A program made the position numbers and the translations under genes. Positions 150 through 33,420 of a stretch of DNA of 38,551 nt are shown here, in pieces. The stretch spans positions 1-38,551 of the forward strand of contig JALDZX010000105.1 in the NCBI GenBank assembly GCA_022813865.1. The letters run 5' to 3'. Numbering within the stretch: the stretch's first letter is position 1; the number at the start of each line of letters is the position of its first letter. Source of the DNA: Xylographa opegraphella (lineage: Eukaryota). The notes under the pieces are model-generated. The model had not been told where the DNA came from. It made no database searches and saw only the letters and a program-made list of their open reading frames with translations.

Positions 150-1566
150 AAAACTATAAATTTTCCTTGAGTTCGTTAATTTTTATAAACGATTTATACA
201 AGATTATTTTAAAATTGCTTCGTTTTTAACGAGCTTTTAAAAGGGTAACTGTGACGGCTATGACATCAGTCACAAGTAATAGGGGTCGGGCTGGATCAGG
301 ACTAGCACCTTTAGTATATAGTCTCGCCCATGGAGCAGCCTCATCGCTTCTCCATCTTAATCTGGGTTGAAATCGTCCACCTAAAGCTTACGTTCTAGGC
401 GTGCTTGCGTGGTGAGTTGATGAGCCATAACAGTTTTAATAAAAACTTGATATTGAAATTATTTTAATATTTATTTATCAATGTTTTAATATTAAATAAA
501 AGAAATAATAATTAAAAAAATAATTTCTTATATTTAAAGGCATGCATTGTATTATTTATTAAATCTATTCGTTTTAAATTAATCGCGATTTAGCGTATAT
601 ATATCGCGTAATTAATAAACTTAATAGCGTAATGATTTAAAAATAATAAATATTTTCGTTTGTCGCGTAATTAACGGTTTAATAAATTTAAATTTAATAA
701 GAAAAATAATTATTACGGGTCAGAATTATACAATATTTAATTTTTAAAATTTAAGTCGAAAATCTTTAACGTTATTATTAAAAAAAATATTATCACGTAA
801 TACACCCGGGTTATAACAGGGATTAAAACCCTCCCTTTTTTCTAATAATTAATTTTAAAATAACATGATTATTGCAAAGTATTTTATGTTATTACAATCT
901 TTAAAATTAGGTTTTTTTATTTGATACAAGCTTAAATTTTTTATATCGCGAGTCGAATTTTATATTATTCAAAAAATTCTTTATTTCGATTAATTCGTAA
1001 ATAAATTAAAACTCGATAAGCGATATTATATATTATATTTTTTATGGAAAGTTTACTATTATAAACTTGATTAAATTTTATAGTTTTAAGCCCTTTTTTC
1101 TCTGTTAATAAAAATAAATTATTTTTAATAAATTATTTTCGTTGAAAATTATCTTATATTCGAGTAAATGTTTAATATTTACGCTATAATTATTTTTACA
1201 AACTCGAATATTATTTCAATGAATAATCTAACTATTTTAATACCTGGCTTTTTAAGAAGCAATTTAAATTTTATTATTATATTTAATAATAAATAACGGG
1301 TTAAATAAATTAAAAATAACGCAAGAGTATATTATTAAATAATTATTTATATCGATAATATTAGTTAAAATTTTAAATTTAAAAACGCGTACAAAATTTT
1401 TTAATAATTAAAATTAAATAAAATATGTTAAAACGTAAGTAAATATACTTTATATTAATAAATTAACAAACAATAAATAATTTTATTAATTATAAACTGC
1501 CACACTCAATTACGATTAATTTTTTTTAAATATATTTAAAAGAATTAAAAAATAAATTATAATAGT
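150..1566 (-). mobile_element. RIP-degraded Ty1/Copia remnant (protease / GAG-pre-integrase / start of integrase)
   Basis: Minus-strand fragments 'VLIPVITRVYYV' (~795-835), 'YNACL*' (~535-552; de-RIP CNACLQ, zinc-binding CxxC) and 'YPFK' (~237-248) occur in Copia pol order. Boundaries are uncertain. Confidence 0.45.
250..432 (-). mobile_element. Un-RIPed short Gypsy-type LTR (183 bp), related to the LTR at 13334-13565
   Basis: GC-rich island with TG...CA ends and imperfect terminal inverted repeats. Its reverse complement TGTTATGGCTCATCAACTCACCACGCAAGCACGCCTAGAAC... aligns with TGTTACGGCTCGCTATCTCACCAGAAAAGCAGGCCTAGAAC at 13334. The flanks (GTAAC/GTTTT) are not a TSD. Confidence 0.8.
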
Positions 1567-3362: not shown

Positions 3363-3605
3363 TGATACGGTTCGTAAAACGTGGTTTTCAGCCACGTGGC
3401 TTCCTCTATGAAGCTCACCCTGTGCGTGGCTTTCTTGCTGGGGCCCACCCTGTGCGTGGCTTCCTTGCTGGGGCCCCTACCCTGCAGAGTTTCTACCCCG
3501 CCTGCTTCTGTAAAATTAACGTAAGAGGGCCCTATATAATGAGGCTCGTTTCCATAAATATTCAGTATTTTCTTCATTCATACAAAGTTCACATTGCTTG
3601 TGATA
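3363..3605 (+). mobile_element. Solo LTR (243 bp) with RIP-compatible TSD TAAAT/TAGAT
   Basis: TGATAC...TTGCTTGTGATA (terminal CA mutated to TA). TAAAT at 3358-3362 and TAGAT at 3606-3610. About three 30-bp tandem units at ~3393-3485 and TATATAA at ~3533. One terminus matches TGTCACAAGCAAT of the solo LTR at 33060. Confidence 0.8.
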
Positions 3606-7713: not shown

Positions 7714-8102
7714 TACTATAGTAATCATTTATTTTTTTCGATTTATTATATAATTATTTTGATAATCGTTAATATAATACGTTAAAATACTTTTTATTTC
7801 GTATAAATTACGAGGTTATAGCTAAATATTACCTTTTTAATTTTTAATTTTTTTTAAATAACAATATTAAATATTACTAAATTTATACTATCCTGTTTAT
7901 GTTATAACTACGACCCGACTCGACTCGAAAATTATTTTTAATAATTAAATTGAAATTATTTATTCTAGCAACGCTAAAAAGATTTATTAAAAACGTTATT
8001 GTATATAAATATTTTTTACTTTTTTACTTTAATTATAATTATTATATTAATAATTTTATTCTTAATAATTTCTTATTATATCGTCGCCATCTCGCGATTA
8101 CG

Positions 8103-8462
8103 TGATAAGGTTCTGATCAATATTGTGTGAAACAAAGGTCGGAGGAATCTTATTTCGGATGCCTCCTTCGCCTCCCAGAAGGCATGAAAGGCATGACCCT
8201 TTTGCCTTAATGGTCTTCCTCGAGAGGTATAAAAAATATCTCAAAATAAAACTTTTATATAAAGTAAAGAATTTCCTTCATTGTAAAAGACGTATTCAAT
8301 TTATATTATAACCTTAAAGTAACAGGCTTTGATACAATATTATACGAAAATTATTATTTTCAAAAAACAACAAACTTGTTACTGTACCTTTTTATTTATT
8401 TATTAACGAATTCAATTCAAATCTTTAATCGAATTATATTAATAAGAAATAAAATCGTAATA
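8103..8462 (+). repeat. 5' LTR of the chromovirus
   Basis: Starts TGATAAGGTTCT and aligns end to end with 14146-14509, mostly by transitions. Confidence 0.92.
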
Positions 8463-8522
8463 TTTTAAAATATTCTTAAAATAAATATATTAAAAGCACG
8501 ATTATATCCAACCCTAAATATT

Positions 8523-10100
8523 ATGAAAGGCAACCTAAAAAATACTGCAAAAAATAATCGCGTTAAGGTAAAAAGATTTAATTGTTATAAAAAAATAGAA
8601 ACTATTTAAAGGAATGATATATGCAAATAAATAGATTTTATATTTTTCGGGTTTCAGGGGGACAGTGTTTTAGAATTAAAAAAATCACTTTTCGTTATTA
8701 TTTATATGCAAGGACAAGCTCAGAAATGAAAAATATCTTAAAAACTTTAATAACGAAGGTTTGAAATGGCTAAAAAAAATTCGCGACGTTTAAAATCGAG
8801 ATTAAATTTTTTTTAAACTATTAAATGAGAAAAATATAGCGATACAAATTATATAGTATTTTAAACAAAAAAGATTTTGCGCGGAATATTTAACTCGATT
8901 TCAATAATTCGCAATTAAAATAAAGTAAAACAACGATGCCTTAACTGTAATATATCGTAAAAAATTTAAAAAATCGATTAAAATAAAATTAATGAAAACT
9001 GGTGCCGCAGTTAAAACCATGGATGAAATAATCGAGAAATGTATAAAAATCGACGACAGACTGTATACAAAATTATAAAACGCAAATACGAAACCGAAGG
9101 CGCAGCAAAAACTAATTATTAAAAAAACGATTTTAAATCGAAAGAAAAACTTTACAAAACGTTAAACCTTTATAAATTAATATCAACAGAAATAAACGTA
9201 TTTTAGAAGCAAAAACAGGGTTTTGAAAAATAATATTTCCGGGGAAAAAATAAAAAATAAAAAATATATATATAAAAAATCGACAATATTGCTAAAAACT
9301 GTCGGTCAAAAAACAAGATATTTAAACTACAAATAAACGTATATTTGAAATTTTCGATAAAATCGAAACTTAAAAAAACCAGCTATTTTTATACAAAAAA
9401 GAAAATACGAAACTTATTTTAATTTTAAACGACCAGGTTAAGGTTAGTACTAGCAAAATAGGCGAGAAAATTAATTTGCAAAATAACATTTAGGTAAAAA
9501 TTAACAACAACGAAAAAAGCGACTTAAATATTAATAATTTTATTAAGAAAAACCCCGAGGAACAGAATATCGATTGAAATAACAAAAAAAACTAGATTTA
9601 TTAACAATCTAACGAGCCAACGACGTCAATATACATTAAAAAAATAAATATATAAAATTATCGAGTAAATCCAGAACATTTATATTATAATATAATATAC
9701 AGTAGTATTTATATAAGCACGCACTGCAAAACTTACTAAAAAAATCATAACTATAATATTTATACGGGGAGAGCTTATTGTAATACTTAAATTTAAAATA
9801 AATGCTTTAAAAATAAATACCCTTGGCATTTAAGAAAAAAAAGAAAAAATCTATACTTTTTAGAATATATACAATAATTTTGCTACAATTTTATTATATA
9901 TGAAACCCGTCCGGAAAGAAAGGACTGCGGAAATCCATTATAGCAATAGTATTTTTATAAAGGGTACGTAATATACAAGGAAACCAAAGAAATTTACGGT
10001 TATTTTGAACAGAGAAAAAATAATTCTACATGTTATAAGGAAATATATAAAGATTAATATAATATACCCCAAAATATACTAAGGATAATTTTATTTTATA
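8523..10100 (+). pseudogene. gag: gag pseudogene with degenerate CCHC knuckle and Cys/His-rich extension
   Basis: ATG at 8523; retrotransposon gag-like segments; knuckle remnant '...IAKNCR' at ~9265-9305. Colinear with the second copy at 33850-35200. Confidence 0.7.
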
Positions 10101-13100
10101 AATTTTATAAAGATTTCGATTAAAATAAACGGTTATCGGACAACCGTAGTATTCAATATTAAAATTAATTCGAATTATATATTTAATATGTTCGCGAAAA
10201 GCTGCGATTTCGAGTTTTCAACTTTAAAATAGGTTTCAATAATTATTGTCGACGGGTTATTGAAATAGAAAAACAAACGATATATAAAGCCATTTTCTGT
10301 CGTTATTTATTAGTATCATAAAAAATAATCCTTGATATAATTATTATAACCAGGTACTATATTATTCTAGACTTATCTTGATGGATTAAATACAATATAT
10401 GTTTAAACTGGAACAGAAAAGTATTTACCAAAAAGTAAATTAATCGCGTTATTGATATATATTTTATATACCGACAGAGGACGATGGTAAATAAATAAAA
10501 ATCGAAAATCGATCGAGATTATAAAATTTTTATTTTCGGATAAAATAATTTTATTCGAGAGTTCGACTCGATACGCATTAGCAAGAGCTAACAGAACAAA
10601 TTAAACTAAAGTTTAAAAAAAGCAACGCATCTTTTGACATCCCTAAAAAATATAAAACGTAAATATAATTTTTTCAGGAAAAAACAAAGCTTAATGCCTT
10701 GTTTAAATACCAACCTTAGGATTATAAAATCAACCTCGAATCAGGGAAAAAGCCGAAATTTAAACCTATATACGATATAATAAAAAAAGAACTTTAAAAG
10801 CTTTGCAAATACATTAATAAAAATTTAAAAAAAGAATTTATACGAAAATTAAAATCCTTATTAAAATATTCCGTAATATTTATATTTAAAAAACACGAAA
10901 GTATGAGATTTTGTATTAGCTATCGAAAGTTAAGCGATATTACTATTAAAAATCGATATTCACTACCAAAAATCAGTAAAATACGGAACAGGTTTAATAA
11001 AGCAAATTTTTTTTATTAAATTTAACCTTCAAAACGCATATAATTTAATAAAAATAAAAAAAGGCGAGGATTGGAAAACTGTGTTTCGAAGTAAATTTAA
11101 ATACTACGAATATTAAATTATATTTTTTAAATTAACCAATACGCTAGTTACTTATCCGGCATTGATTAACAACGTATTAAAAACATATTTAAATTTAACG
11201 ATAATAGTTTATTTAAACGATATATTTATTTACTCGAAATTAGCAAAAAAACATATAACGTATATATAAAAAATACTTACATGTCTGAAAAAAGCAAAAT
11301 TGCTTTTTAAATTAAAAAAATATAAATTTAGCAAAAACGAAATAGCCTTTCTAGGATTTATAATTAGCAAAAACGGAATTAGAATAAATTTAAAAAAATA
11401 CAAACCATACTCGAATAGCCTCGATCAAGAATAGCAAAAAAAATCTTGGAATTTCTAGGGTTTACAAACTTTAACAATCCTTTTATTAAAAATTACGCGA
11501 AAAAGGCGATACCTCTGACGAACCTGATATATAAAAATATAAATTTTAAATGGAATTCAGACCAGCAACGAGCCTTTGATATTTTAAAAAAGAATTGTAT
11601 AAAATTACCAGTTTTAATAATATTCCAGGTAGAAAAACCTGCAAAAATGAAAATAAACGTATTAAACTTAGCAATAAATGGATATTTACTGTAAATGCAT
11701 AACGGAAAATGGCACCCTGTTACATATTATTCAAAAAAACATTATAAATAAAATAGAACTATAACATTTACGACAAAAAATTACTCGTTATAATAGTATT
11801 TATTTAAAACTAAAAAGTATACGTAAAAAGTTGCTCCGAGTTTACTATTTATACAGACTACAAAAACCTGTTAAATTTTACAACAATAAAAATACTCAAT
11901 AGAAAATAAATAAAATAGGCAGAACTTTTAAAACAGCACAAGTTCAAGATTATATATATACCAGGCAAAAACAATAAAAGAGCAGATATATTTAGCAGAA
12001 AAAAAATCTAATAAATTAGGAATTTATAAAGGAAGCATTGCTACAGGAAAATAGCAGTAAAACTTTTATTTTTGCAAAATAAATCGCTATTTTCGAGATA
12101 AAAACGATTGTCACAGACTTAACAGAACTGTTACCAGAAAAAATAATCAAGTATTATTACGATGATTTAGCAAATAAACATTCAGGAATTACCAAAACAA
12201 TGGAATTTATAAAGAGAAACTACGAATTCCCGAACATAAAAAAATATATAAAAGAATATATTAAGAAATATATACTCTGCTAAAAAAACAAATCAACCAG
12301 ACATGCGATATACGAAAATATTTAATTTTTAAATATTCTAAAAAATTCGTAGAAGCAAATTTTAATTAACTTTATTACGAAACTGCTAAAGTTAGAAAAT
12401 TTAACTATAAAATGAAAATATAATTCAATAATAGTACTTATAAACGAATCTATCATACACTTTATTATTATACTTTTTAGGAAAACGTTTATAATAAAAT
12501 AATTAATATCTCTTTTATTGAATAAACTAATAAAAAATTACGAATTCCCAGCAGAAATAATATTTGATCGAAATAAACTGTTTACATCGAACTTTTAAAA
12601 GACTTTGATATTTGAATCAAAAGTTAAGTTGAAAATATTAATCGTTCATTATTTACAAATAAATAGTTAAACAGAAAGAATAAATCAAAACCTTAAAATA
12701 TATTTAAAATACTTTATTAATTTCAAACAAAATAATTATCTATCTTTATTGCTTTTAAAATAGCTAGTATTGAATAATAAATAATAAATAATTCGCAACG
12801 ACGAGGATGTCGCCGTTTTTCGCAAATACGCAACAATATTTAAAATTATTTGAAAAAAAGATCGAGAGTTAATACTAATAAAACAATAATATTAGCCAAA
12901 GATTAAAAAAATACGTATAAAACGCTATCGACAAAGATTTAGCAAAGCAACGACAAAATTGCTACTGCGATACGTAATAATAAAAAAATGGGTCTTAACT
13001 AAAAAAGGGGGATAAAGTATATTTCTTTACAAAGAATTTAACAATCAGCAAAAATCGAAGCAAAAAACTCGATTATGTCAAGGTCGAATGATTTTTAATT

Positions 13101-13333
13101 AAATAAATTAAAGAATTAACTAACTATTTTCTCGACCTGCTAAAAAATGTAAAAATATATTTAATATTCTATATTTTTTTATTGAAATCAGCGAACGAGA
13201 GTACTTTATTATAAATAATCTTTCGGTACAACAAAATGAAACAGGAATTCGAAATAAAGAAAATTCTAAACAAGTAAGGTTAGAATTATTTAATTAAATA
13301 AAAAAATATCTAAAATTAAATAATACTTGGGAA

Positions 13334-13565
13334 TGTTACGGCTCGCTATCTCACCAGAAAAGCAGGCCTAGAACCACAGCTATAGGTGAGCGATTTCAAC
13401 CTAGAATAATACAAGGAAGCAAGTTTANNNNNNNNNNNNNNNNNNNNNNNNNNNNNNNNNNNNNNNNNNNNNNNNTAACCGCTTTCGAACTAGCCTGAGT
13501 CCCGGACGCGCTTTAGTCTCGTTCCGTCTATCACTTGTTAAGGTGCCATGTAACACGCCGTTACA
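13334..13565 (+). mobile_element. Un-RIPed LTR (solo or collapsed element) inserted in the chromodomain, TSD GGGAA
   Basis: TGTTACGGC...GCCGTTACA ends. GGGAA at 13329-13333 and 13566-13570. Removing the insert restores the codons TGG GAA CCA (W-E-P). Confidence 0.93.
13428..13475. other. Assembly gap (48 N)
   Basis: Run of N inside an LTR. Confidence 1.
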
Positions 13566-13660
13566 GGGAACCACTTACTAATCTTGAAAACTGCCAGAAG
13601 TTTTTTTTAACAATTCTATTAAGTAAAGCTAAAATTTCAGAAAAAAAAGCTTTTAAAGTC

Positions 13661-14089
13661 TCAGGAGAAAAAAAAAAGAGAAAAAACCTCGAAAAAATCG
13701 TTAATAAAGGCTTTCGCCTCCCGACGTTTATTATTTTTCAAGGTTTCGATGTTAGATATTTTACGCTAAAATATCTCCCGTTCCTCGTTTTCAATATTTA
13801 AAAGTCGATATTTTTTACGTTCAAGAGTTTCTCTTAATTTAACCACTCGGCGTTTTATTTTACTCTTTCGTTTTTTTAAATTACGGCGGTCGGTCTCGAT
13901 GATAATTTAAAAATAACGAGTTTTAGCGGCAATACAATTTGCGCAGAACTTCGACTTCGAACTTTTTTTATAAACTAAATGTTTCTTAATATAACGATCG
14001 TAAGAATACATCGTAAATTTTCTATTATTACGAATAATATACGACTGAACCTTTGGGCGGAAAACGCTAAATAATTTATATTTTGACAT
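13661..14089 (-). pseudogene. Antisense extra ORF of the chromovirus: Zn(II)2Cys6-like cluster plus coiled-coil-like segment (RIP-damaged, ~143 codons)
   Basis: 'YDRYIKKHLVYKKSSKSKFCANCIAAKTRY' gives C-x2-C-x6-C-x8-C-x2-C-x6-C when TAY codons are reverted to TGY. The frame continues past TAA (13907) and TAG (13766) as 'ETDRRNLKKRKSKIKRRVVKLRETLERKKYRLLNIENEEREIF*RKISNIETLK'. An un-RIPed homologue lies at 26574-26404. Confidence 0.8.
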
Positions 14090-14130
14090 AATACAAGGAA
14101 ACTGCTAAAATTCTTTTAAAATAAAAACCT

Positions 14131-14145
14131 GGCAGGGAAAGCTAA
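14131..14145 (+). other. Polypurine tract
   Basis: GGCAGGGAAAGCTAA directly before the 3' LTR; the un-RIPed version GGCGGGGGAAGCTAG is at 26616-26630. Confidence 0.8.
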
Positions 14146-14509
14146 TAATAAGGTTCTAACCAATATTGTGTAAAATAGGGGTCGAATTTTTTATTTCAAA
14201 TGCTTTCTTTACCTTTGCAAAAGATATGAAAAGCATAATTTTTTTGCTTTAATAGCCTTCCTCGAAAGGCATAAAAGATATTTTGACATAAAACTTTTAT
14301 ATAAAATAAAGAATTTCGTTTATTGTAAAAGACGTATTCAATTTATATTATAATCTTAGACTAATTAATAGGCTTCAATACAATATTATACGAAAATTAT
14401 TATTTTTTGAAAAACGATAAATTTGTTACTGTGCTTTTTTATTTATTTATTAACGAAATCAACTCAAATCCCTAATCGAACTATATTGATGAGAAGCAGA
14501 ATCATATTA
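14146..14509 (+). repeat. 3' LTR of the chromovirus
   Basis: TAATAAGGTTCT...ATCATATTA; aligns to 8103-8462. Confidence 0.92.
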
Positions 14510-18934: not shown

Positions 18935-21900
18935 TTTTATAAAGTTTTAAGCGTTTTTTAAATATCGTATTACGTATGATTAAATTATTAAATTTAATGA
19001 GGGTATAATTATTTCTATTACAATTTATTAATAAAATTCTGTACGACTCGGTTCATCAAAATCCAAGCTTTTTAATTATTAAATGATTTTTTTATTTCAT
19101 ATTATATAAAAACCAGGTTCCCAGGTTAATATATTTTATTTTTAACGTTTAAATTTTTATTTTAAAATTATTTATTTTGTTAGCGTATTCGTTCGAATCG
19201 AGCAATAATTTTCTTTAGAATTTTATTACGTTAAAGTAATTATTAACTTTATATTACTAATAAATTAGCTTAATTTTTAATAGTATTTTAAAAAAGCGTA
19301 TTTTAAGTAGCGATTCTCGTTTTAACGAATAAAAGATAATAATAGTTATAGATAAATTTAAATAAGGTTTTTTTATACTTTAACGAATAATAGTACGATT
19401 AGTTTATATAATAACGTATAAAAAATTTAAATTATTTATTTATTATCTTTGAAAGGCTATCGATTATAAATTTCCATTTTTTTCGATTAAATCGCTGCTT
19501 AAAAAATTGTATATAAACGCGATTACCCGTTTGATTTTATATAAATTTATTAAATTATTCGTTTAAAGCTTATCTTCAAAATTATTATTATAAATAAATT
19601 TTTCGAAAATTTTATGACGCGTAATTATATTTTTAATATAAAATTAGCGACGGCAGCTAAAAAAGGCCCTTTTTAAAATACGAGTTTTTAATTAATCAGA
19701 AATATCCTCGCAGGCGTGAATCAGATAATTTTTTTCTTAAATATAAATGATTTAACTATATTAACAGCGACTTTCTCAAACAAAATAGTAAAATAAAATA
19801 TAAAAATATTATTATTTTATAAAACGCGATCGCGTATTTGATATTCGTAATATATTTAGTAACATTTCTTGCAGATTTTATATAAATCGTTTTATTAAAA
19901 TAATATTAAATCTTTACGATAAATACTCTCACTACCTTTATAGCCCGAATAATTATATTAATAAATAATTATTTTTATTATAAATTTTTACGATTTATAA
20001 TATATCGTATAAAAATATTTTTCAAAGAGTTTGCCGTCACGGACTAAAAACCTTAAAGTTTTTTTTTTAAATTTAAAGAATTATCGTATATTTAATTTTT
20101 ACGAGCGTTTGAAAATGGTTAAATATTTCGCGATGTTGATATATTTTTCGTTATAATTTAATATGAAATTTATAATAAAGGTTTTTTCAATTAATTTTAA
20201 ACTTTTTATTATAATATTTAAAAGTTCGAAATTTGAACTTGTAAATATCAAATCGTTATTATTTATAAATATTTTCAGTACTGCGTAATAAATTTTTACT
20301 ATATTAAACTAAGAATTCAGGAATTGTTTAATACTATTATCGTCCATTTTATTATTTTTAGGCATCCAGAATCGTTTTAAAAGTTCATTAACGATGAAAT
20401 ACTTTTTTTAAATACGTATCGTATATTACAGTTAATATATGGAATTTATATAAATTATTAATTAAACAATACTTCGAGTATATTCGCCACGCCCTTGCTG
20501 AACTAATTTATTAAATTTTAAATATTTATTTTAAATAATAAAATAAATCTCGTATAAATATTATTTAATTTTTTTTAAAAATTTTTAAAATTTTAATAAA
20601 ACTTAATACTCTCGCTTGCCTGTATCGTATATGACTTTTATAAAATATTATATTTTATTATTATATTTCTAAATATACTTTCAAAAACCGTTAAAAGCAA
20701 TTTTCATAAAAAAAGATTTTTATTTTATTAAATTGATATTTATAATTAATATAATTTCGCGTTTATTGAAGGCCTCGTAATTTAATAATTAAATCGCAGA
20801 GACAAAAATAATGCAAAGTTTTAAATAATTCATAGCTTTTTATTGGGTTTTCTCCCATATAATTTTTTTTAAAAACGTATATCGAAGCTGCGATAAAAAC
20901 AAAACCCTTAATTTGTAAACGAAAATAAATATAAATATTAATAAAAACACGCATATTTTTCAAATTTATATATAATAGCTATTTAATAATTTTCAAAATT
21001 TTCATTAATTTCGAGGTACGTTCATCAAAATCATAAATAAATTTAATAATCTTTAGATACTTGATGATAAAATAAAATTTTAAAGTTAGTATATACTGAC
21101 CGGTAGTTTTAACGTTTAGAAGTCTTTTATTTAAATTTTATATATATTTTAAAATATAACGACGGGTTTTAGGCAGCGCTTCAACGTTATTATAAATAAT
21201 ACGAAAACCTTTAACATCGATATTATTGATAAATATACAAACAATTATAAATATTAAATTTTTTAAAATTTAAATTATTATTTTACAAAATTAAGCGACC
21301 GAATTTATTAATTTTTCAATAATAATATAAGTTTTTTAAAACCCCTAAAGGTATTTAAAATTGTATACAATTACGGCTAATAATATTAAATAAAATTTAG
21401 TTATATTTTAACTATATATTTACGAGACTAACGAATTTTAGGCCTGCAAATTCTTTGATAAAATCTTAAATGTTCGAAGGCATAATGACATTTTAAATGA
21501 AAGTTTTATTAATTAACATAATAGTATTAATTAACATAATAGTATTAATCAGTCGTTATTTCCCTTTATTAGCTTTTTTTAATCAAAAATTAAAAATTGC
21601 GATAAAATTTATAATATTATTTTAAAATCCCCGTGTTCAATCGATTTTTTAATATTTTAATAACCTTTGATTTTAAAGCTTTAAAAACGTAAAATCCAGG
21701 TGCCTATTATATTTTATACTTGATGATTTTCATTTTCTGCGAAAAGGCAATTTTTTTACGAATTTAATTAATATAAATAAAGTTTTAACCTAAAAATGCT
21801 TCCTTGTTAAATAATATGATTAAAATCAATTCTTTTATTTACAATTGAATATTTCTCAATTTTAAAATTTTAACACGCTTTAAAATTAGCTTAACATTAA

Positions 21901-22700
21901 CTGTTATTTTAATATTACGGAAAATAATTAAATATTCGTTCGAGTTTAGCTCGAGTTATTATATGTATTTAATATTTCGTAAAAATTTATTTTTTAGGCT
22001 ATTAAACGCTAAGGATTTTCGCCAGAAAAATTCGTTCAATTAATAAATTATATTTTATCGGCCTTGCGTTTATATGTTATTTAAATATTTCTTTTCCGCT
22101 TTATATCGTACTGTAAATCCCATCGCCTTAACAGTTAAAAATGAATCGTTTCTTAAATTTTAATGATTTAAATATAAATACAACATTATTTATTATTGAA
22201 TTTTGATTAGTTAATAAATTTTTAAATATAATTCCTGGGGTTTCGTACTAACGAACCTTAAATATATTGATAATTATTTTTATTGGTCGATAGAATAAAA
22301 AATAGTTTCGACGCTTATTCTTTTAAATTTTTCTTATAATAAAAAATATTAAGAAATAGCTATAAAAATATTTTCTTTTTAAAATATTTGCTCGTGCGTA
22401 CGCTCTCGAAGCGAACAGTAATATTAAAATCAAGGTTCATTATTTTAATTTCGATTTTATTTAACGATAATATTTTTATAATTAGAAAAATTACATTTAA
22501 AGAAAGTATTCTAAAACCAAAAGTTAATTGATGTATTTAACTATAAATATCGCTTGAAAAATAGTAATTAATTTTTTCTCGACCTTAATATTTTTACAAA
22601 TTATTTTTAATATTATTTCGTGGTTCTTAATATTTATCAATCGTATTCGCTGATTAATCGTAAAAAATATTTTAAATTTTTAAATTAATTATTTTTAAAC
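18935..22700 (-). pseudogene. pol: pol pseudogene (RT, RNase H, integrase; no chromodomain)
   Basis: 'FINNIDVKGF' at ~21233 (FIDD). ORF 20963-20763 'RVFINIYIYFRLQIKGF' is the connection domain. 'YDTGKRE' at ~20630 (RNase H). 'KRVIAFIYNF*AA...IIDSLSK' at ~19530-19450 (integrase). 'PGNLVF...KLGF**TESYRI...KRLKLY' at ~19125-18940 (GPY module). The upstream limit is approximate. Confidence 0.85.
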
Positions 22701-22912
22701 AATTAATCTTTATTTCTAAATTTATTAAGGCGGTTGTAGTTATATCGTTTATTTATATTATAGCTCTTGAGCTCCGTAAGAAATAAAGAATATTTTTTAA
22801 AATTATTGTTTCGCCTGATTATACCCGTATTATTTACCGTAATTTATTAATTTAAATTTTGTTAATAATATTCGATTTTGCGGATTTAAATATTAATTTA
22901 TAAATAAATATA

Positions 22913-23000
22913 AACGTTAATAAGTCTTTAACGTTAATAAGTCTTTAACATTAATAAGTCTTTAACGTTAATAAGTCTTTAACGTTAATAAGTCTTTAAC
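22913..23000. repeat. 17-bp tandem repeat AACGTTAATAAGTCTTT, ~5 copies
   Basis: Direct reading. Confidence 0.9.
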
Positions 23001-24042
23001 AATAATATTTTAAATAATCGTGTTTAAAGGTTTTTTTATTATTTACGTAAAATTATTTTTACTTATATTCGCTAATTTATTTATTAATTTAATATTTTTG
23101 ATCTTGGGAATCGATTTATCTGTCTGCTTCGTCTTGCTTTTTTTTGCCTTTATTTTTATTCTCGAATTTAATTTGCTTTTATACTCGTTTATAATTTATT
23201 TTTCCATTTTTATTATAATTTTATTATTAATGCCGTCGGGGGGATTTTTAATAATCAAATATTAATGGCCTTATTTAAAGCTCGGGGGGGGGTTTTTAAT
23301 ACGTTAAAAGTAAAGTTTTTAAATTAATCGTTTTATTTAATTTTAAAGTTTGCTATATTTTTTTGAATTCTTTTTTCAGTATTCTTAGTATTTTTAGTAT
23401 TTTTATTTGATAATAATTCTTTCGAGAAACGTCCACGCTAACGCTTTTTTAATTAATTTGAAATAACTATATTCATATTATAACGTTTTAAGGTATTATT
23501 GATTAATGTATTTTTCATTTAATATTTGAATTTTTATTTAAAATATTTTCTTTTTTAAAATTTATATTTAAGTTTAAATTCTTAATACGTATTTATAAAT
23601 AATTAATTATATAAATTTGTATTGCCTGAATGTTCTGCCGCTTATAATATTTGTAAAGCAAAAAAAGTATTATATTTAAATTATAATATTATTGAAAAAT
23701 ATAAATATTTTATTGTTATTAATAAATTTTTAATAAATTCTTAACTGCTCGTTTAGGTAAATACGGCTTATTTTATTAAATTTATACAATTAAAATAAAA
23801 TTTACGATAATAACTGAATTTATAATAAAAATAGCAAAAGAATTTATTATATATTTACGCGTTCGTACGCTCGTAGCTTTTAAAAGTTTTACGAAATATA
23901 TTTGTTTAAAAATTTCATGGTATTAACCGTATAATTATTTTAAAATTACTTTTTATAGTTACTAAGTTTAAAAGGCCGGGTAAAAATTGCGATCGAATAA
24001 TTATGATTTTATATTAATTAAATTTATAGTTTTTAATTTAAA

Positions 24043-24270
24043 TTTTGAATTTTGAATTTTGAATTTTGAATTTTGAATTTTGAATTTTGAATTTTGAATT
24101 TTGAATTTTGAATTTTGAATTTTGAATTTTGAATTTTGAATTTTGAATTTTGAATTTTGAATTTTGAATTTTGAATTTTGAATTTTGAATTTTGAATTTT
24201 GAATTTTGAATTTTGAATTTTGAATTTTGAATTTTGAATTTTGAATTTTGAATTTTGAATTTTGAATTTT
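24043..24270. repeat. TTTTGAA 7-mer tandem repeat, ~32 perfect copies
   Basis: Direct reading. Confidence 0.95.
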
Positions 24271-25704
24271 ATTTTTTAATTCGAGTGTAAAAAATTTTAA
24301 TAGCTTTAATAGGTAAAGTTTTATTTTGAAATTTGATCGTTAATTTATTTACGTTTGTATTTTTCAGGGTAGCTATAATATAAATCTCCTTAATCTTTTT
24401 AATAATTATTATTTTCGTATTTTGAATCTTTTTATCATCAATAGTAAAAATTGAATTATATTTTCTTTTTTTAATAAGATTTCGCAAATTTTGAATACTT
24501 TTTTTCATTTTGAAAAATTTTTAAACCCCTTTTTTTAAGCTATATTTTTTGCAGTTTTAATTAACTTTTTTTCAAAATTCTAAATTTTCGCTTCGTTAAA
24601 TTTTATATTTATTTTTTTAATAATTTTAATTCGGCGTCTTTTTATCAGACCGTAAATAAATTGTAAATAAATGATATATTTATTAAATTTAAATTTATTG
24701 ATTATCTGATTAGTCATTAAGTAGTGTTAATAGCGGTCATTTTTAAGTTTTAATTTTTAGTTACAAATTACTTTTTACACTACTTGAAATATACACTGCA
24801 ATAAATTTTTTAATTAATATTTTAATTAAAAAAATTCTTGAACAATCGTTCGATTAGTTTATTTCAGTTATTTTATTCGAATTTTAAAAAGACCTTTATT
24901 CAAATATTTATAATAAAAAATAATACTTAAATAAACGCTTAACTCGTATACTATTTGCAACGCCGTAATTAAAATACATAGTTCTATAATTATTAATTAA
25001 ATCGATAATATTGAATTTATTAAAATAAAATGCCTTAACGAATCTAGGTGGCGCTATAAATATATAAATAACATAAAAAAAAGCGAAATATTTTATTTTA
25101 TTATATTAAATTCGAGCTTTTATACTTAAATACAAATACCTTTAAAAACAAAGATTTCGGGCGAGTTAAAAATATATTAATTTAACTAATAATAATAATA
25201 TAAAAACGATAAATATAAACAATTATTAATAATATAACTGCTGTAGCTACTAAATTCGATCGCTATAAAAATTAAAAAAATTCGATATATATGGCTTAAA
25301 TATAATTTTTATTTTTATTTTTAAATTTTTAAATATTATACCTAAAAGTTTTGAATTGTAGCATTATTAGTAAAGAACGTTTTAATAATATGTTTAAATA
25401 TTCCTTAAATTTAATTCGCTACTTTAAATTAATCATTTGGCGATTTAAATAAAAAGCTGTTTTTTAATCGTAAAAATTACTTTTTATATTTTTTTAGGGA
25501 AAATTTCGTATTTTTTTATCATATAAAAATCTGGCCCTCGCTTTTCGCTGATTTCCTGGCATTTTTGCCTTTGATTTAAATTATTATAATATCTATTAAA
25601 CTTTTAAATTTGTTTTATCGTAATTTCAAAAGTTTTTACCGAGGTTTTTCGAGGTTAAAATAATTATTTATTTATTTAATTTTTTTTTAAATATTATACT
25701 TTGA

Positions 25705-25723
25705 TCGCACCGTGGTCGTTAAC
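25705..25723 (-). other. Putative tRNA primer-binding site
   Basis: Minus strand directly after the 5' LTR reads GTTAACGACCACGGTGCGA, which de-RIPs to gtTGGCGACCACGG. The primer tRNA was not identified. Confidence 0.55.
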
Positions 25724-25990
25724 TGTAATAAAATTATATATTTTTGCAGTAATATTTTATAGTAAAAACGAAAAATAATTATTAAATAAAAAATAGTGAA
25801 GCGCAGCGATTTTATATTATTAAAATTACGATCATATTAATTGTTTCGCAGTAAAAAACTGTACTAAATTAAATTTACTAAAAATTAATATATATTATAT
25901 AGTTTTCCTAAGAATACTTCTTTAAATAAATTATATAATAAAAACGCGAAGCGCCTTTATCGATTTAAATAATTATCGAATTTCACTACA
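25724..25990 (-). repeat. 5' LTR of the 10.8 kb element
   Basis: TGTAATAAAATTATAT...TCACTACA; aligns with 15225-15493. Confidence 0.88.
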
Positions 25991-26401
25991 AACGTTTTAT
26001 ATGAAACATAAAATTTTGAACTCGAGGTATAATACGTACTTAATTTATTAAGCTAAAATTAAAAAGGGAAATTAAAAATCGCGAATTCTGATTATGTATA
26101 TATATATTAAACTTTTCAATTAAAAAGCCACGGTTAAAACGTAAATAAATGAAAAATTACACCTAAAATATAAATAAAGGAAAATCACGTTTAAAATATA
26201 AATAAATAAATAAACGTATATATCGATAAATCGAACGCTATTATAAATTTTAAGTTTTATAGCATTATTCTTTTTTTATATTTGTCAATTTTAAAAAATT
26301 ATAAATATTCTCGCAATACGGGCGAGACGTAAGTAAATTATATTTACAAATTTTGTAAAATAAATATATAAACGAAATATAAACTATTACGAATATAAAT
26401 A

Positions 26402-26680
26402 CGCGCTTTTACCTCAACACATTGCGCACAGAAATCAGAATCCGCAGAAATCTGACACAAAACACCTTCTTTAACACAGCGATCGCAACGATGCATTGCG
26501 AATTTTCCTTTTTCGCGAATATCAATGGATTGGACCTTTCGGCGATGGGAACTGGACGACTTGTGTTTAGGCATGATGAAGATAAGCTGCTGGAATTCTT
26601 TCGGAGCAAGAATCTGGCGGGGGAAGCTAGTGATAAGGTTCTGACCAATACTGTGCGGAACAGGGGGTCGGGGGAACCAT
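26402..26680 (+). mobile_element. Un-RIPed fragment of a chromovirus 3' end (antisense ORF 5' part, PPT, first ~48 bp of LTR)
   Basis: Colinear with 13915-14190. TGATAAGGTTCTGACCAATACTGTG at 26631 matches the LTR start at 8103. Confidence 0.88.
26404..26574 (-). pseudogene. Truncated Zn(II)2Cys6-like antisense ORF with intact codons
   Basis: MPKHKSSSSHRRKVQSIDIREKGKFAMHRCDRCVKEGVLCQISADSDFCAQCVEVKAR gives C-x2-C-x6-C-x8-C-x2-C-x6 and is cut exactly before the sixth Cys. The ATG is 57 bp from the LTR start, as in the 14089 copy. Confidence 0.85.
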
Positions 26681-27656
26681 AATTCTTTATTCAAAACGAT
26701 GTAATCAAAAAATTCGATTTTTTATTTATTAAATTCGTATTTGTACAATTTTATTCGTAAATCGACCATTTTCAATATTTAAAAATATTTTCTAGTATAT
26801 TAAATATATTTCTTTTTATTGATAAAATATATTGATATATCGTTCCTATATACGATTATCAATATATTTAAATATTTTTAAATACGTTATTCATATATAT
26901 TTAGAAAAATAATGAATATATTAATTGATATAAGAAACATAATCGTATACTCGTAAAGATTAAGTCGTATTTTTATCGCGATTTTCCACTGTTCGCCTTT
27001 TTTTTATACGAATTCGATTATACGCTTCTGGTATATCGAATTTTATAAATCAATTTGCTTTTTAAAATCGATTTTATAATTTCAAAATTAATGAAAAAAA
27101 TACCTATTTTTAATAATTATATTATTTAATTCTTGATAATTAATATAAAGTCGAGATATTCCGTTTTTCTTTAAAACGAATAATATTAAATATTTCGCGA
27201 ATAGTTACGATTTTCGTATAAAAACTTTTTATTTTTTATTAAAGGATTCTCGTAATACAAATAATTTTTTACTAACAAAAAATAAAATAAAACATTTTAA
27301 TTTTATAATTAATATACTAAAAAAGTTTCATTTATAGCTTTTTTAATATAAAGCGTCGAGATTTCCTTATACTTTTTATAAATTTAAATTATAAAAAATG
27401 TTTCTTTATTAATAAATTTAATTTATAGAATTTTCATTTCGCTTAAATATTCTCCTTATAAACTTTTTAAAAGAGATTGCGTATATTTTAAATTCGTTAT
27501 TTAATAAATTTGCGTTTAAAAGCATTTTTTATTCCTGAAAAAAATTGTTTATTTAATTTGATTAATCTGTATTTTTTTTAATTATAATAACCCCAATATT
27601 TTATCGTGGCCTCTTATTATCTTTATATCAAATGATACAGTTATAGCGTATGATTT

Positions 27657-27838
27657 ATTTCGTATTTTCGTATTTTCGTATTTTCGTATTTTCGTATTTT
27701 CGTATTTTCGTATTTTCGTATTTTCGTATTTTCGTATTTTCGTATTTTCGTATTTTCGTATTTTCGTATTTTCGTATTTTCGTATTTTCGTATTTTCGTA
27801 TTTTCGTATTTTCGTATTTTCGTATTTTCGTATTTTCG
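27657..27838. repeat. TTTTCGTA 8-mer tandem repeat, ~23 copies, inside the protease region
   Basis: Direct reading; it generates the spurious ORF 27650-27847. Confidence 0.95.
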
Positions 27839-30136
27839 TTTTTTTAATTAACTTTTTTAACTGTATTTTAAAGGTTTTTTTATTAGCGCTATTATTAAGA
27901 TTTTTTTTATTTTAAAAATTAATTTTTGCTCTTTTCGCGAAATTTAATAATATAAAGTTTACAATAGCTTTTAAATCGATTAAAATTTTATTATAATAAT
28001 TATTTATATAAATTATTACTCGTAAATTTTCCGTATGATTTATAATTCAAAAACATTTGTTTAATGATCAATTTTAACTATTTAAATACTTTTATATTTA
28101 TTCGAAAAAATTTTGTAAAACGTTTTCGTCGATTTCTCGAAGGGCTCACTAATTTTTTACCGCGGATTTAAACAATTTTAAGAATTTAAAGTTTTTACGT
28201 TAATTTTTTTCTTTAAATACTTTTTAAAATTCTAGCGATTATATTTTTATTTAAACGTTTAAATTGTTTATTTTAACTTTGGCGTTATATATTTTTCGTC
28301 GAATATTGTATATTTTGTTAAATAGTAAATATTAACTTTATTAATAAATATTCTTTTATAATATTTCTGTATCGTATTTAATTCTAAAGTTGATTTCTCT
28401 ATAATTAATTATATAACAAGTTAATTTAGTCATATAATAACGTTTTTTAATTTTGTTATTGAAATATTATAATATTTCGTATAAACCTTGTATTATAAAA
28501 TAATATATTTATTCTATTTTGATAAAACGTAAATATTTTTCTAATATTATTAATATTTTTCTGGAAAACTGAGTTTTAAAGTACGTTTTTAAATATATAT
28601 TTAATATTAAATTATAAATTAATTTTTATAAAATAAATCTTTTTCGTTTATTAGTTTTTAGTTCGCTATAAATTCGTTTTCCTCTTTTTGTTTTTTTAAA
28701 AAATAAGTCGATTTTGATTATTATATCCTTTAAATTTTTACAAAATTCTTGTATTTAAAAATTTTAAAACAATTTAAGTTTTTTCTTTTAGAATTATTAT
28801 TATTTTATAAAGTTGGCTATTTAATTAGCGGTACTCGCTTTTTGCTTTTTAAATGTTATATTAAGTTCTAACTACTCGGATTGCTTATATTTTTTAAAAA
28901 ATCTTTTATAATTCGATTAATTAAATCGCAAAAAAGCTTAAAATTTAATTTATATTTTTAATAGCTTTTTTTCTCGTCTTTTTTTAATTTATAATTAAGA
29001 TATATATTATCTGGCTTTTTCTCGTACTCGTTTTTTTCTAACATGTTAAAGCTCGAAAATTACATAACGCGCTTGATTATTTATACTATTTTTTAAAATT
29101 TTAATATTAAAGGAAATTGTTCAAAGCCGTTTTTATTATTATAATATATAAAATAATTATTATCGTAATAAACTGTTTAAAACACGCTACTATAATTTTA
29201 CTTTACAGTTACGATTAATTTCTATTTTTAAAATAATATATTTTTCTTCGATAGTAATTTTTTTATATTGATACTAATTTTCTTTAACTATTGATAATTT
29301 CGTGCGAGATATTTTTCGCGGTCGCAATTATAAAACTTTTTTTTCTCAATAAATTTCTTTTACTAATTTTCATTTTACCTTATTCTACGAAACTGCTTTA
29401 AATGTTTCGTAATAGTATTTAATTTTATTAAATCAATTTCGTAATAATTTCGATTTTTTATTATTATAATTTATATTTTTATATTTTTAATATAAAATTA
29501 TTGGCATTCGACAATTTTATTTTTTATTATTTAACGTTGATAAAAGCGATTGTCGATCGTAATCGTTTTAAAAAAAATTAATTATTCGATTTCTCTGCTT
29601 TAGGAATATTATTTTAAAAAAAATTTAAACTTTATATAAAATTACGTAATTTCAATATCTTTGTCCCAGTTAACAAAAACGATAATATTTCAAAAATTTA
29701 AAGTATATTCAAATATTAATTCTCGCTGAATTAAATTCAATAGCTTTTTTTAATATCATTTCAAAATTCATATCTTTATTTTTATTTTTTATTTAAAATT
29801 AGTTCAGTTGCCAAAGATTTTTTTGATAATTATTTTTATTTGTTTATACGATTGCTTACGAAGTTAATAAAATAAAATTATACGTCCGTAAACGTTTTTC
29901 CTCGGCAGAACTTTATAGCGAATATAATAAGAAAATTTATTTAAAACTATTCGTTATTATTTTATATGTAAACATTTATTTAACATAAAAAGGTTTTTAA
30001 TTTATTACGTTCCTTATTATGATCGTTTAATTTACGAAACGTGATAATCTTTTTAACATGACTTTCTCGTTTTGCGATTAATTTTAAGGTCGATATTTTA
30101 TTTCAACTATATACTTTATTAAAGTAATATTTGAAG

Positions 30137-30454
30137 TATAATGATGGGTATTCCTTTGAACAGGGGGTAAAGTAGTACCAGCGATTATAAATATTTATTA
30201 AGAAATATAAAGAGGGTTTATATTTATATTAAAATCATTCATTATTTACGATATATAAATGGAATACGCCAGAGCCCCCAGGGCTTTTAACGTCTTTATA
30301 TAAATATTTTATCATTATAATTTTAGTTGTTTTAGTATTTTTAGTATTTACTGTTAATATTATAATGATTAAAAATCTCTTGATATTTTGTTGTATAATT
30401 CCGCCGGGCCCCTTTGAACACTATCTTATTATGACTTGTCGCGAGTTCGTGACA
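30137..30454 (-). repeat. 5' LTR, same family as 37583-37902
   Basis: Plus strand TATAATGATGGG...GTTCGTGACA versus TGTAACGGTGGG...CTTCGTAATA at 37583-37902; gag follows on the minus strand. Confidence 0.78.
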
Positions 30455-31610: not shown

Positions 31611-33420
31611 ATTTTATACGCCAAACGATCGATGCGTTTAAAAATTTTAAATAACTTAACACATTTTTAATAGATTTCTCGTTGCTCGATATTTAATACG
31701 TTATATTTTTTATATAATTTCAAATTTACTATATTTCCCTTTTAAAAGAAAATCGATTTATATTTTAAATCATGGTAAATTTTTATTTTTATAAATATAA
31801 ACGCAATTACGTTTTTCGTATCGATATAAATAAATTAATATTTATTAACGTTCGCCATGCAAAAATTATCAATATTATTAAATAAAATATTTATGTTATT
31901 ATAAACATTATTATAATAACGTTTTCTCGTCGTAGTTAAATAAATAAATATAAACGGCTCAGTCAAAATCACATTTTTGATTTTAATGGATTTTATATTC
32001 TCGAGTTTTAAAAAATTTAGGAATTTTTTATCGTTTTAAATTCATAAAGGATTTATATAAATATTTTATCAATAAATATAAAATTAATAAAATTACAAAA
32101 AATCTAGTTAAATCGTAGTAAAATATTATATTAATTGAATATAGTCTTTAATATCGCTTTATAACATCGCAGTATAATTTCCACGGTTTAATTTAAACGT
32201 TCAAAATCATCGTTCGGCTATAAATAATGAAATATAATATGAAAAATTTACTTTAAATGCTTCAAAAATTCCTTTTTAAAATTCTTTTATAAATTTTCGA
32301 TTTTTATCAAAAAGAATAGTTTTAAACACTTTTTAATAAAGCAAATATAATTCATTAAATAAAATTATAATATATATCTTTTTATTAATAGTTATTTTTC
32401 CACAAATAATCGGAATAGCTTTATTAAATTTATATATTTATTTTATTACGTAATTATATTTATTGAAATAAGATTTGGCAACTTTAATATAAAATCAATC
32501 GTTATTATATTTAAAAAACTTAAAAAACTAGAATTAATTATAATAAACTATAAAACTTATATTAAAATATTTAAGAAAATTAATATTGTAAATAATATCG
32601 AATATATACGTATAGCTTTTTATTTATATTAAAAATATATATAAATTCAATTAATTTTTAATATGTACGATCGTATTCTTCATAATCCATGCTATTATAA
32701 ATAAGTTTAAAAATATTTTTAATTATAAACTTGGAAATATAAAGGCGAAAACTTTATTTAACGTCGTTAAAATAAAATAAAATATTAATTATATAACAAG
32801 GGATTTAAACTTTATTATTTTTAATGATTTTTTCGACGCGTATTCATCGCAAATCTCATAACTATTTTTTATTCAATTCTTTTTAAAATTTTCGCCTATT
32901 TATACTATAAATATTAAATATACCGACATCGATTTAATTATATAAATAAAAACTGCGATTTTTTCGAATGTTAAATCGCGTTAAATTTATTCCTTAAAAT
33001 AATATTCTACTTCATCGATTATTTAAAGGCGTAAAAATTGAATTTATTAAATTTATATCTGTCACAAGCAATTTGATTGTGTTGAAAATGTGAAAAATAT
33101 TTCATTGTAAAGGCCCGAAGGCAACTATATAAGGGGGCTGGGTTGCCAAGCAATTTCCAAGCATTGTCCAGTGTACGCATCGACCAGCGTTCTGTGTTAA
33201 ACACGTAACAATATCGTACGTTAAGTTTAAATCGCTGAGAATACTTTTAAAATCGTATTAGTTTGAGATATAACTTTTTAATAAATATAGTATTAAAACT
33301 TATTTATTTGAATATTCAATACGTAGTTAAATAATAAATAAATATAATTATCGATAAATTCATAAATTCTGTTATATATCGCCATCTTTTAACGATTTAT
33401 ATTAAATCAAAAATTTTAAT
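31611..33420 (-). pseudogene. Gypsy integrase-region remnant
   Basis: 'FERLN*TVEIILRCY' at ~32205-32160 (SERLNQTVE..LRCY) and 'FKIFKRIDRLAYK' at ~31650-31613 (GPF module). The upstream limit is uncertain. Confidence 0.7.
33060..33210 (-). mobile_element. Un-RIPed solo LTR (151 bp) with perfect TSD ATATC
   Basis: TGTCAC...GTAACA ends. ATATC at 33055-33059 and 33211-33215. TATA-like motif at ~33126. Orientation is inferred from similarity to 3363-3605. Confidence 0.92.

What the first reader, a model, noticed from the sequence alone, without database searches (positions are those of the whole stretch)
26402..26680. Pristine 280-bp fragment of the antisense gene sandwiched between RIPed pol pieces
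Seen: a GC-rich island with ~48 bp of LTR start, the PPT, the leader and the first 58 codons of the zinc-cluster ORF. It has no TSD and lies between a minus-strand RT (above 26685) and a weakly integrase-tail-like stretch (below 26400). It preserves the ancestral protein sequence and implies a recently intact donor element. Inference: filler DNA captured during break repair or deletion, possibly a cDNA of the antisense transcript whose 5' end would map ~48 nt into U3. It is short enough to escape RIP.
Basis: partly seen in the sequence, partly recalled or inferred. Interest (0 to 1): 0.7.

Follow-up and report, generated by a model that had tools for sequence, protein, structure and literature searches.

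The report
Retrotransposon scrap patching two dead elements
A 280-base unmutated scrap of one fungal jumping gene joins the broken ends of two other, long-dead jumping genes, most likely as filler left by DNA break repair; it is real but inert, an ordinary kind of genome scar.

Summary
The island is real: 26402-26680, GC 0.48 against 0.20 and 0.17 in the flanks. It holds 58 codons of a Gypsy antisense six-cysteine ORF, a purine tract and 50 nt of LTR. It has no target duplication, and read contigs at background depth cross both junctions (probably the source run).

Three corrections. The left flank is not pol: it is the 3' LTR end of a second Gypsy family, and the right flank is RT of a third, so the island bridges two unrelated elements. 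It is un-RIPed but not a perfect copy: it carries one private amino-acid change. No exact donor was found; the closest are 89% (assembly) and 91.5% (a collapsed read contig at about 6 times background depth).

Best reading (0.55): element DNA or ordinary element cDNA captured as filler at a repair junction after the flanks were RIPed. The right end stops 2-6 nt before the donor LTR's strongest hairpin. Rivals: insertion trimmed twice (0.30); antisense-mRNA cDNA (0.08), with nothing in its favour beyond position. By-product: 10 of 12 listed ORF differences are synonymous, so the gene was under selection. This scan noted such antisense genes before in at least 7 other genomes. Low interest.

The parts
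26402..26680 (+). Un-RIPed fragment of the 3' region of Gypsy family C (the island); the A at 26401 also matches the donor copies
26401..26574 (-). First 58 codons of family C's antisense ORF, with five of six cysteines; the junction cuts just before the sixth; the frame reads on 18 codons into the flank, to a stop at 26344
26616..26626 (+). G-rich purine tract 4 nt before the LTR; polypurine tract by position (inferred)
26631..26680 (+). First 50 nt of family C's LTR; in donor copies a strong hairpin starts 2-6 nt further on and a TATATA 80-89 nt further on
25999..26401 (-). RIPed end of Gypsy family B: terminal direct repeat of about 215-235 nt (3' LTR, inferred) plus about 170 nt of non-coding DNA, cut internally at the island
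26680..30454 (-). RIPed 5' half of a family D-like Gypsy element: D-type LTR at about 30210-30454, RT cut at 26680; the RNase H-integrase-3' LTR part is missing here
13917..14190 (+). RIPed homologue of the island inside a full-length family C element (8101-14506) in the same window; 63% identical, so not the donor

Best explanation
An inert repair scar. After elements B and D had been RIPed, a break or pair of breaks in this repeat block was sealed with a 280-nt piece of an un-RIPed family C element. The piece was either copied from a genomic copy or captured as a fragment of the element's ordinary replication cDNA. It joined B's 3' end to the middle of D's RT, with about 1 nt of overlap at each side. 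The LTR hairpin just beyond the right end probably set that end, by stalling synthesis or by being cut. The piece then stayed un-RIPed because it is short and at least 8% different from every other copy seen. SHOWN: three different families, both junctions internal to the elements, no target duplication, RIP state, no exact donor found, hairpin position. INFERRED: single event, end-joining mechanism, order of events, role of the hairpin.
For: Families differ. The right flank has 8-10% transversions against four D copies, 16% against family C RT and 21-23% against the five family B copies that score above shuffles. The left flank aligns to five B copies (score 355-433; shuffles at most 131) but not to four D copies (61-86; shuffle maxima 79-118), and the D LTR does not match the B terminal repeat. 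Neither island end is an element end: 27 of 30 LTR-start loci continue past +50, 2 reach a contig end, and only this one breaks; the closer copies continue past codon 58. D homology stops dead at the junction: 1-3 of 12 identical outside, 8-11 of 12 inside. GC loss is directional: each of 15 copies has lost 16-62 G/C relative to the island, against 6-18 the other way. GC is 0.12 and 0.16 in the 50 nt next to the island and 0.45 and 0.57 just inside. Hairpin: z -4.6 to -6.5 in three donor LTR copies; the window starting at the island's end is the most stable of 96 in both C213 and C180. Precedent: in yeast, Ty1 fragments are captured at breaks by end-joining, with the 3' LTR region a hotspot (PMC11372161, passages). 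In maize, filler DNA joins previously separate sequences (PMC2686159, passages).
Against: There is no empty-site allele or relative to show the state before the event, and no exact donor. The hairpin coincidence was found after the fact, is one case, and is weaker in two of five copies folded. A hairpin could equally start a deletion. Maize filler is described as 1-131 bp and copied from near the break; this piece is 280 bp and the only in-window homologue is 63% identical. The five bases right of the junction equal the RIPed form of the donor's next bases in 1 of 8 copies, so the exact end is uncertain by about 5 nt. Other truncated family C pieces exist (C213, C2), so trimming of this family is common.
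Confidence: 0.55

Rival explanations
1. Remnant: a whole family C element integrated normally between B and D, then two separate deletions trimmed it from both sides, removing parts of B and D too, before RIP reached it.
For: Nested and truncated elements are common here. Un-RIPed solo LTRs with a 5-bp duplication show that elements can be trimmed before RIP acts. A hairpin could initiate the right deletion.
Against: It needs three events, with two breakpoints 280 nt apart in a 6.4-kb element, and no RIP in between. Solo LTRs form by recombination between LTRs, which cannot produce this piece (established knowledge).
Confidence: 0.3
2. One reading: a cDNA of the antisense mRNA was captured, so 26680 marks the antisense transcription start in U3.
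For: The fragment begins in the LTR and covers leader and ATG in mRNA order. A palindromic TATATA lies 80-89 nt upstream on the antisense strand in four donor copies. Antisense promoters in or near 3' LTRs are reported (PMC7264820, section 8). The ORF was under selection, hence expressed.
Against: No poly(A), no untemplated cap base and no intron; the 3' end lies in mid-ORF. The +50 end does not recur: 1 of 30 loci. The hairpin offers a simpler cause. The element's normal cDNA has the same polarity.
Confidence: 0.08
3. The junctions are as old as the flanks; RIP decayed B and D around a piece too short to be recognised.
For: RIP is said to need over 400 bp and 80% identity (PMC4522978, passage), or 155-220 bp of perfect homology for close repeats (PMC4858203, passage).
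Against: The island has only 3 private letters in 280, no RIP bias at its edges and intact CpA sites, while the flanks are deeply decayed. This changes the timing, not how the junctions formed.
Confidence: 0.05
4. Misassembly joining three repeats.
For: The contig is made of repeats. The only run holding it may be the source run, and its contigs differ from the assembly by a 28-nt unit at 26163.
Against: Separately assembled read contigs at background depth cross each junction: 237 and 212 nt on the two sides of the left junction, 86 and 920 nt on the two sides of the right.
Confidence: 0.02

Closest known systems
Ty1 cDNA fragments captured at double-strand breaks in Saccharomyces cerevisiae (PMC11372161, passages; earlier work by Moore and Haber and by Teng and Gabriel, recalled)
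   Same: Sub-kilobase retroelement piece from the 3' region and LTR, with no integrase signature, lodged at a junction.
   Different: Natural and fixed, not induced. It joins two unrelated elements. The cDNA-only extra nucleotides that mark many Ty1 captures were not seen, so a cDNA origin is not shown.
Filler DNA at end-joining deletions in maize (PMC2686159, passages)
   Same: Foreign sequence linking two previously separate sequences, with no need for homology.
   Different: Longer (280 nt against 1-131 nt), and not copied from near the break as far as the window shows.
brtn of Boty-like Gypsy elements of Botrytis cinerea (Zhao et al. 2011, seen only as a reference title in PMC7264820 and as a passage in bioRxiv 10.1101/2021.04.13.439636) and plant aORF-3R such as Grande gene23 (PMC7264820)
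   Same: The donor carries an extra antisense ORF between pol and the 3' LTR.
   Different: Homology to brtn was not tested because no brtn sequence was in hand. This ORF has six cysteines and a long helix. The island holds only its first 58 codons.
Solo LTRs and nested truncated elements in RIPed fungal repeat blocks (PMC4522978, passages)
   Same: A short piece unmutated by RIP among decayed repeats.
   Different: Not a solo LTR: only 50 nt of LTR, internal sequence kept, no 5-bp duplication.

Membership tests
Filler or templated insertion at a repair junction | Insert matches sequence elsewhere in the genome | tested here: met
   38 other matches; best 89% in the assembly and 91.5% in a read contig; no exact donor
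Filler or templated insertion at a repair junction | Ends are not element termini; no target duplication | tested here: met
Filler or templated insertion at a repair junction | No or very short junction homology | tested here: inconclusive
   About 1 nt of overlap at each side; RIP decay of the flanks hides older microhomology
Filler or templated insertion at a repair junction | Pre-event allele without the insert | not testable with these tools
   No relatives are held and only one run holds the DNA
Captured cDNA of an mRNA | Poly(A), lost intron or untemplated cap base | tested here: not met
   None at either junction; no intron in the stretch to test
Captured cDNA of an mRNA | End coincides with a mapped transcript start | not testable with these tools
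   Needs RNA 5'-end data
Solo LTR or integrase-made insertion | Whole LTR with TG...CA ends and a 5-bp duplication | tested here: not met
   50 nt of an LTR about 360 nt long, no duplication; the control at 13334-13565 has one
Chromoviral Ty3/Gypsy (donor family C) | RT-RNase H-integrase order, chromodomain, two LTRs | tested here: met
   The C28 copy has RVT_1, RNase H, Integrase_H2C2 and SH3_Tf2-1 over cut-off in that order, Chromo below cut-off (E 0.001), and two LTRs
Zn(II)2Cys6 cluster (PF00172) | Six-cysteine spacing CX2CX6CX5-12CX2CX6-8C (pattern recalled) | tested here: inconclusive
   The island has five of six and is cut before the sixth; the pattern is met in 2 of 3 outside homologues
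Zn(II)2Cys6 cluster (PF00172) | Pfam Zn_clus score above the cut-off of 21 bits | tested here: not met
   Island: no hit. Three homologues: 11.5-14.4 bits. The model of the cysteine part has pLDDT 44-50
Zn(II)2Cys6 cluster (PF00172) | Zinc and DNA binding | not testable with these tools
   Needs biochemistry
RIP-escaped sequence | No excess of C-to-T changes relative to relatives | tested here: met

The most novel reading that the evidence does not exclude
The island is a captured cDNA of the retrotransposon's antisense mRNA, so its right end is a fossil record of an antisense start at LTR +50, at the foot of a conserved hairpin and 80 nt from a two-way TATA. It would show that the antisense zinc-cluster-like gene was transcribed from the 3' LTR, and that such RNA can patch breaks in RIPed heterochromatin.
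Probability: 0.08. Interest if true: 0.55.

Novelty: new member of a known kind. Interest (0 to 1): 0.24.

Why it matters
As a scar it does nothing. It is a clear natural example that RIPed repeat blocks are rejoined with pieces of younger elements, and that short pieces stay readable while their neighbours decay. Its practical value is as a second un-RIPed witness of the antisense gene. Against the multi-copy read contig, 10 of 12 listed ORF differences are synonymous (expected fraction 0.21-0.33; P at most 0.0004, or 0.023 if all five unlisted differences were non-synonymous). That supports a real, selected protein of unknown function in these fungal Gypsy elements.

Tried and rejected
Flanks as two halves of one element (simple deletion with filler): rejected, because B and D differ in RT and LTR.

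Product of one chimeric reverse transcription (D RNA, then C antisense RNA, then B RNA): rejected, because the outer LTRs are of different families and only the flanks are RIPed.

The island as a discrete mobile unit: the matching hit ends only reflect the query's ends; the copies continue on both sides. There are no terminal inverted repeats, and the island itself does not fold better than shuffles (z -0.4 and -0.6).

Left flank as integrase: no Pfam hit in six frames.

Homologue searches: two word-index searches found nothing. The full HMMER scan gave 3 proteins, none with an informative name. Two metagenome scans gave no loci, so the antisense position in other fungi was not tested here. 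The Atlas gave unnamed ascomycete clusters at 0.87-0.90, with a recognition value below the reliable range. PDB and NCBIfam gave only chance-level or coiled-coil hits. I ran no fold search because the cysteine region of the model was unreliable.

Expression: no RNA holder listed, which is no evidence either way. Runs X2 and X3 laid only scraps.

Papers: two searches returned nothing (hairpin and template-switch terms; solo LTR and escape from RIP). PMC9779921 and PMC9684475 (passages) gave background on templated insertions but no case like this. No supplements were read. Earlier scan notes by place and by sequence were empty.

Full report
Observation. The window is an AT-rich block of decayed fungal LTR retrotransposons. 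At 26402-26680 GC rises to 0.48, from 0.20 on the left and 0.17 on the right, and TpA/ApT falls to 0.38. The step is sharp: GC is 0.12 and 0.16 in the 50 nt outside each end, and 0.45 and 0.57 in the 40 nt inside. The minus strand has an ATG at 26574 and 58 codons to 26401, with cysteines at 30, 33, 40, 49 and 52. A G-rich tract at 26616-26626 precedes the LTR start at 26631, so 50 nt of LTR are included. No 5-bp duplication flanks the island; a solo LTR at 13334-13565 has one and serves as control.

Is it assembled correctly? One run holds the stretch and may be its source. Its contigs cross the left junction (26164-26613, depth 156) and the right junction (26594-27600, depth 151) at the background depth of about 150. 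This is a second assembly of probably the same reads, not long-read proof. No single contig spans both junctions.

The donor. The island matches 38 other places in the genome, the best at 89%. It is the 3' region of a Gypsy family, here called C. A copy on contig C28 gives RT, RNase H, integrase zinc-binding and SH3 hits over cut-off, and a chromodomain hit below it. A RIPed full-length member lies at 8101-14506 in this window. Each of 15 copies compared has lost more G/C relative to the island (16-62 sites) than the reverse (6-18), so the island is the least mutated of these. It is not a perfect fossil. Three letters are private against 14 copies. One changes codon 29, at a position invariant in the four other aligned proteins. 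The reads also hold a 612-nt contig at depth 916, about six times background, that matches 26401-26611 with 18 differences (91.5%) and runs on into the donor ORF. Contig depth is a rough guide only, but this suggests a collapsed young subfamily. Both island-bearing contigs stay at background depth, so no identical donor is evident (inference).

The antisense gene. Thirteen of the 18 differences are listed; 12 fall in the ORF, 10 synonymous and 2 not. The neutral expectation is 0.21-0.33 synonymous, so P is at most 0.0004, or 0.023 if all five unlisted ones were non-synonymous. The ORF was therefore under selection in the donor lineages. Three outside homologues of 163-202 aa were found. Two meet the six-cysteine spacing (pattern recalled), none reaches Pfam's Zn_clus cut-off, and the model is confident only for a long helix. 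So 'zinc-cluster-like' is fair and family membership is not shown. The left junction cuts just before the sixth cysteine, so the island cannot encode a whole cluster. Antisense ORFs in this position are in print for plants (PMC7264820, passages and section 8) and for Botrytis (brtn: a reference title, and a passage in bioRxiv 10.1101/2021.04.13.439636). This scan has 15 notes on such genes in at least 7 other genomes; those are unchecked notes, and I could not test the arrangement in other fungi.

The flanks. On the right is RT, cut directly after the FLG-like motif (motif name recalled). It differs from four family D copies by 8-10% transversions, from family C RT by 16% and from family B RT by 21-23% (five copies scoring above shuffles). 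The D copies differ among themselves by 3-4%, so this is a D-related subfamily. It runs to a D-type LTR near 30210-30454. On the left, 25999-26401 is not pol. It has no Pfam hit in six frames, and many genome matches start near 25997-26002. Its first 215-235 nt recur as separate terminal-type repeats in B-bearing loci, once as a direct repeat 2.9 kb apart. A longer copy shows weak RNase H and SH3 hits on the minus strand (E 0.003 and 0.03, below cut-off). I read it as the 3' LTR and 3' non-coding end of a third family, B. It does not align to D copies above shuffles, and its terminal repeat does not match D's LTR. The island therefore joins two unrelated elements, each cut internally. Overlap is about 1 nt per side, with about 5 nt of doubt on the right.

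A clue to the right end. In donor copies a hairpin begins 2-6 nt beyond the island's last base (z -4.6 to -6.5, 0 of 200 shuffles). The 60-nt window starting there is the most stable of 96 in both C213 and C180, and of 31 in C43, but not clearly so in two further copies. Only 1 of 30 LTR-start loci breaks there, the island itself; 27 continue and 2 reach a contig end (these were the 30 loci returned from 48 matches). This is one coincidence found after the fact. It fits stalled synthesis with a template switch, a pause in reverse transcription, or a hairpin-initiated deletion.

Mechanism. One repair event that used a piece of family C DNA or of its normal cDNA as filler explains both junctions at once (0.55). 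In yeast, all parts of Ty1 are captured at breaks by end-joining, with the 3' LTR region a hotspot (PMC11372161, passages). In maize, filler links separate sequences, though it is shorter and local (PMC2686159, passages). Integration followed by two deletions remains a serious rival (0.30), since truncated and nested pieces abound here. The antisense-mRNA cDNA idea (0.08) has only position in its favour, with a TATATA 80-89 nt upstream. It lacks poly(A), a cap base or a lost intron, and normal minus-strand cDNA has the same polarity. Escape from RIP by shortness agrees with the thresholds in print (PMC4522978 and PMC4858203, passages) and with near-identical 232-bp solo LTRs in this genome. 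An open 853-aa cytosine methyltransferase frame exists on C216; its likeness to RID is recalled, not tested.

Verdict. A real, inert scar of a known kind. Interest 0.24.

Noticed in passing
read contig of run X1 matching window 26401-26611: A 612-nt contig at about six times background depth, 91.5% identical to the island, suggests a young multi-copy family C subfamily that is collapsed in or missing from the assembly.
   Followed up: partly
L017:1551-1610, L002:1775-1835 (family C LTR, about +52 to +108): Strong DNA hairpin in the LTR, kept in both subfamilies by different arms, just upstream of a palindromic TATATA.
   Followed up: partly
window 13334-13565: 232-bp solo LTR with a 5-bp duplication, inserted near the end of pol of the family C element; several copies are 97-100% identical and many are 72-89%.
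   Followed up: partly
window 3363-3604 and 33037-33210: Two more short GC-rich inserts in decayed repeats; other copies of the host repeats lack them.
   Followed up: partly
window 26163-26191: Read contigs carry an extra 28-nt unit relative to the assembly, a possible collapsed tandem duplication.
   Followed up: no
L105:823-3384: Open 853-aa cytosine methyltransferase frame, RID-like by recall; two further methyltransferase loci were found.
   Followed up: partly
window 21001-25998: A block of about 5 kb, collinear at 73-79% with contig C10, directly abuts element B's end; its identity was not worked out.
   Followed up: no
L059:6402-8545 and L067:7594-8009: Truncated family C ends (integrase tail or leader plus LTR) sit between host genes, with milder RIP than in the AT-rich blocks.
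   Followed up: partly
window 201-450 and 1701-1800: Further GC-rich patches, not examined.
   Followed up: no
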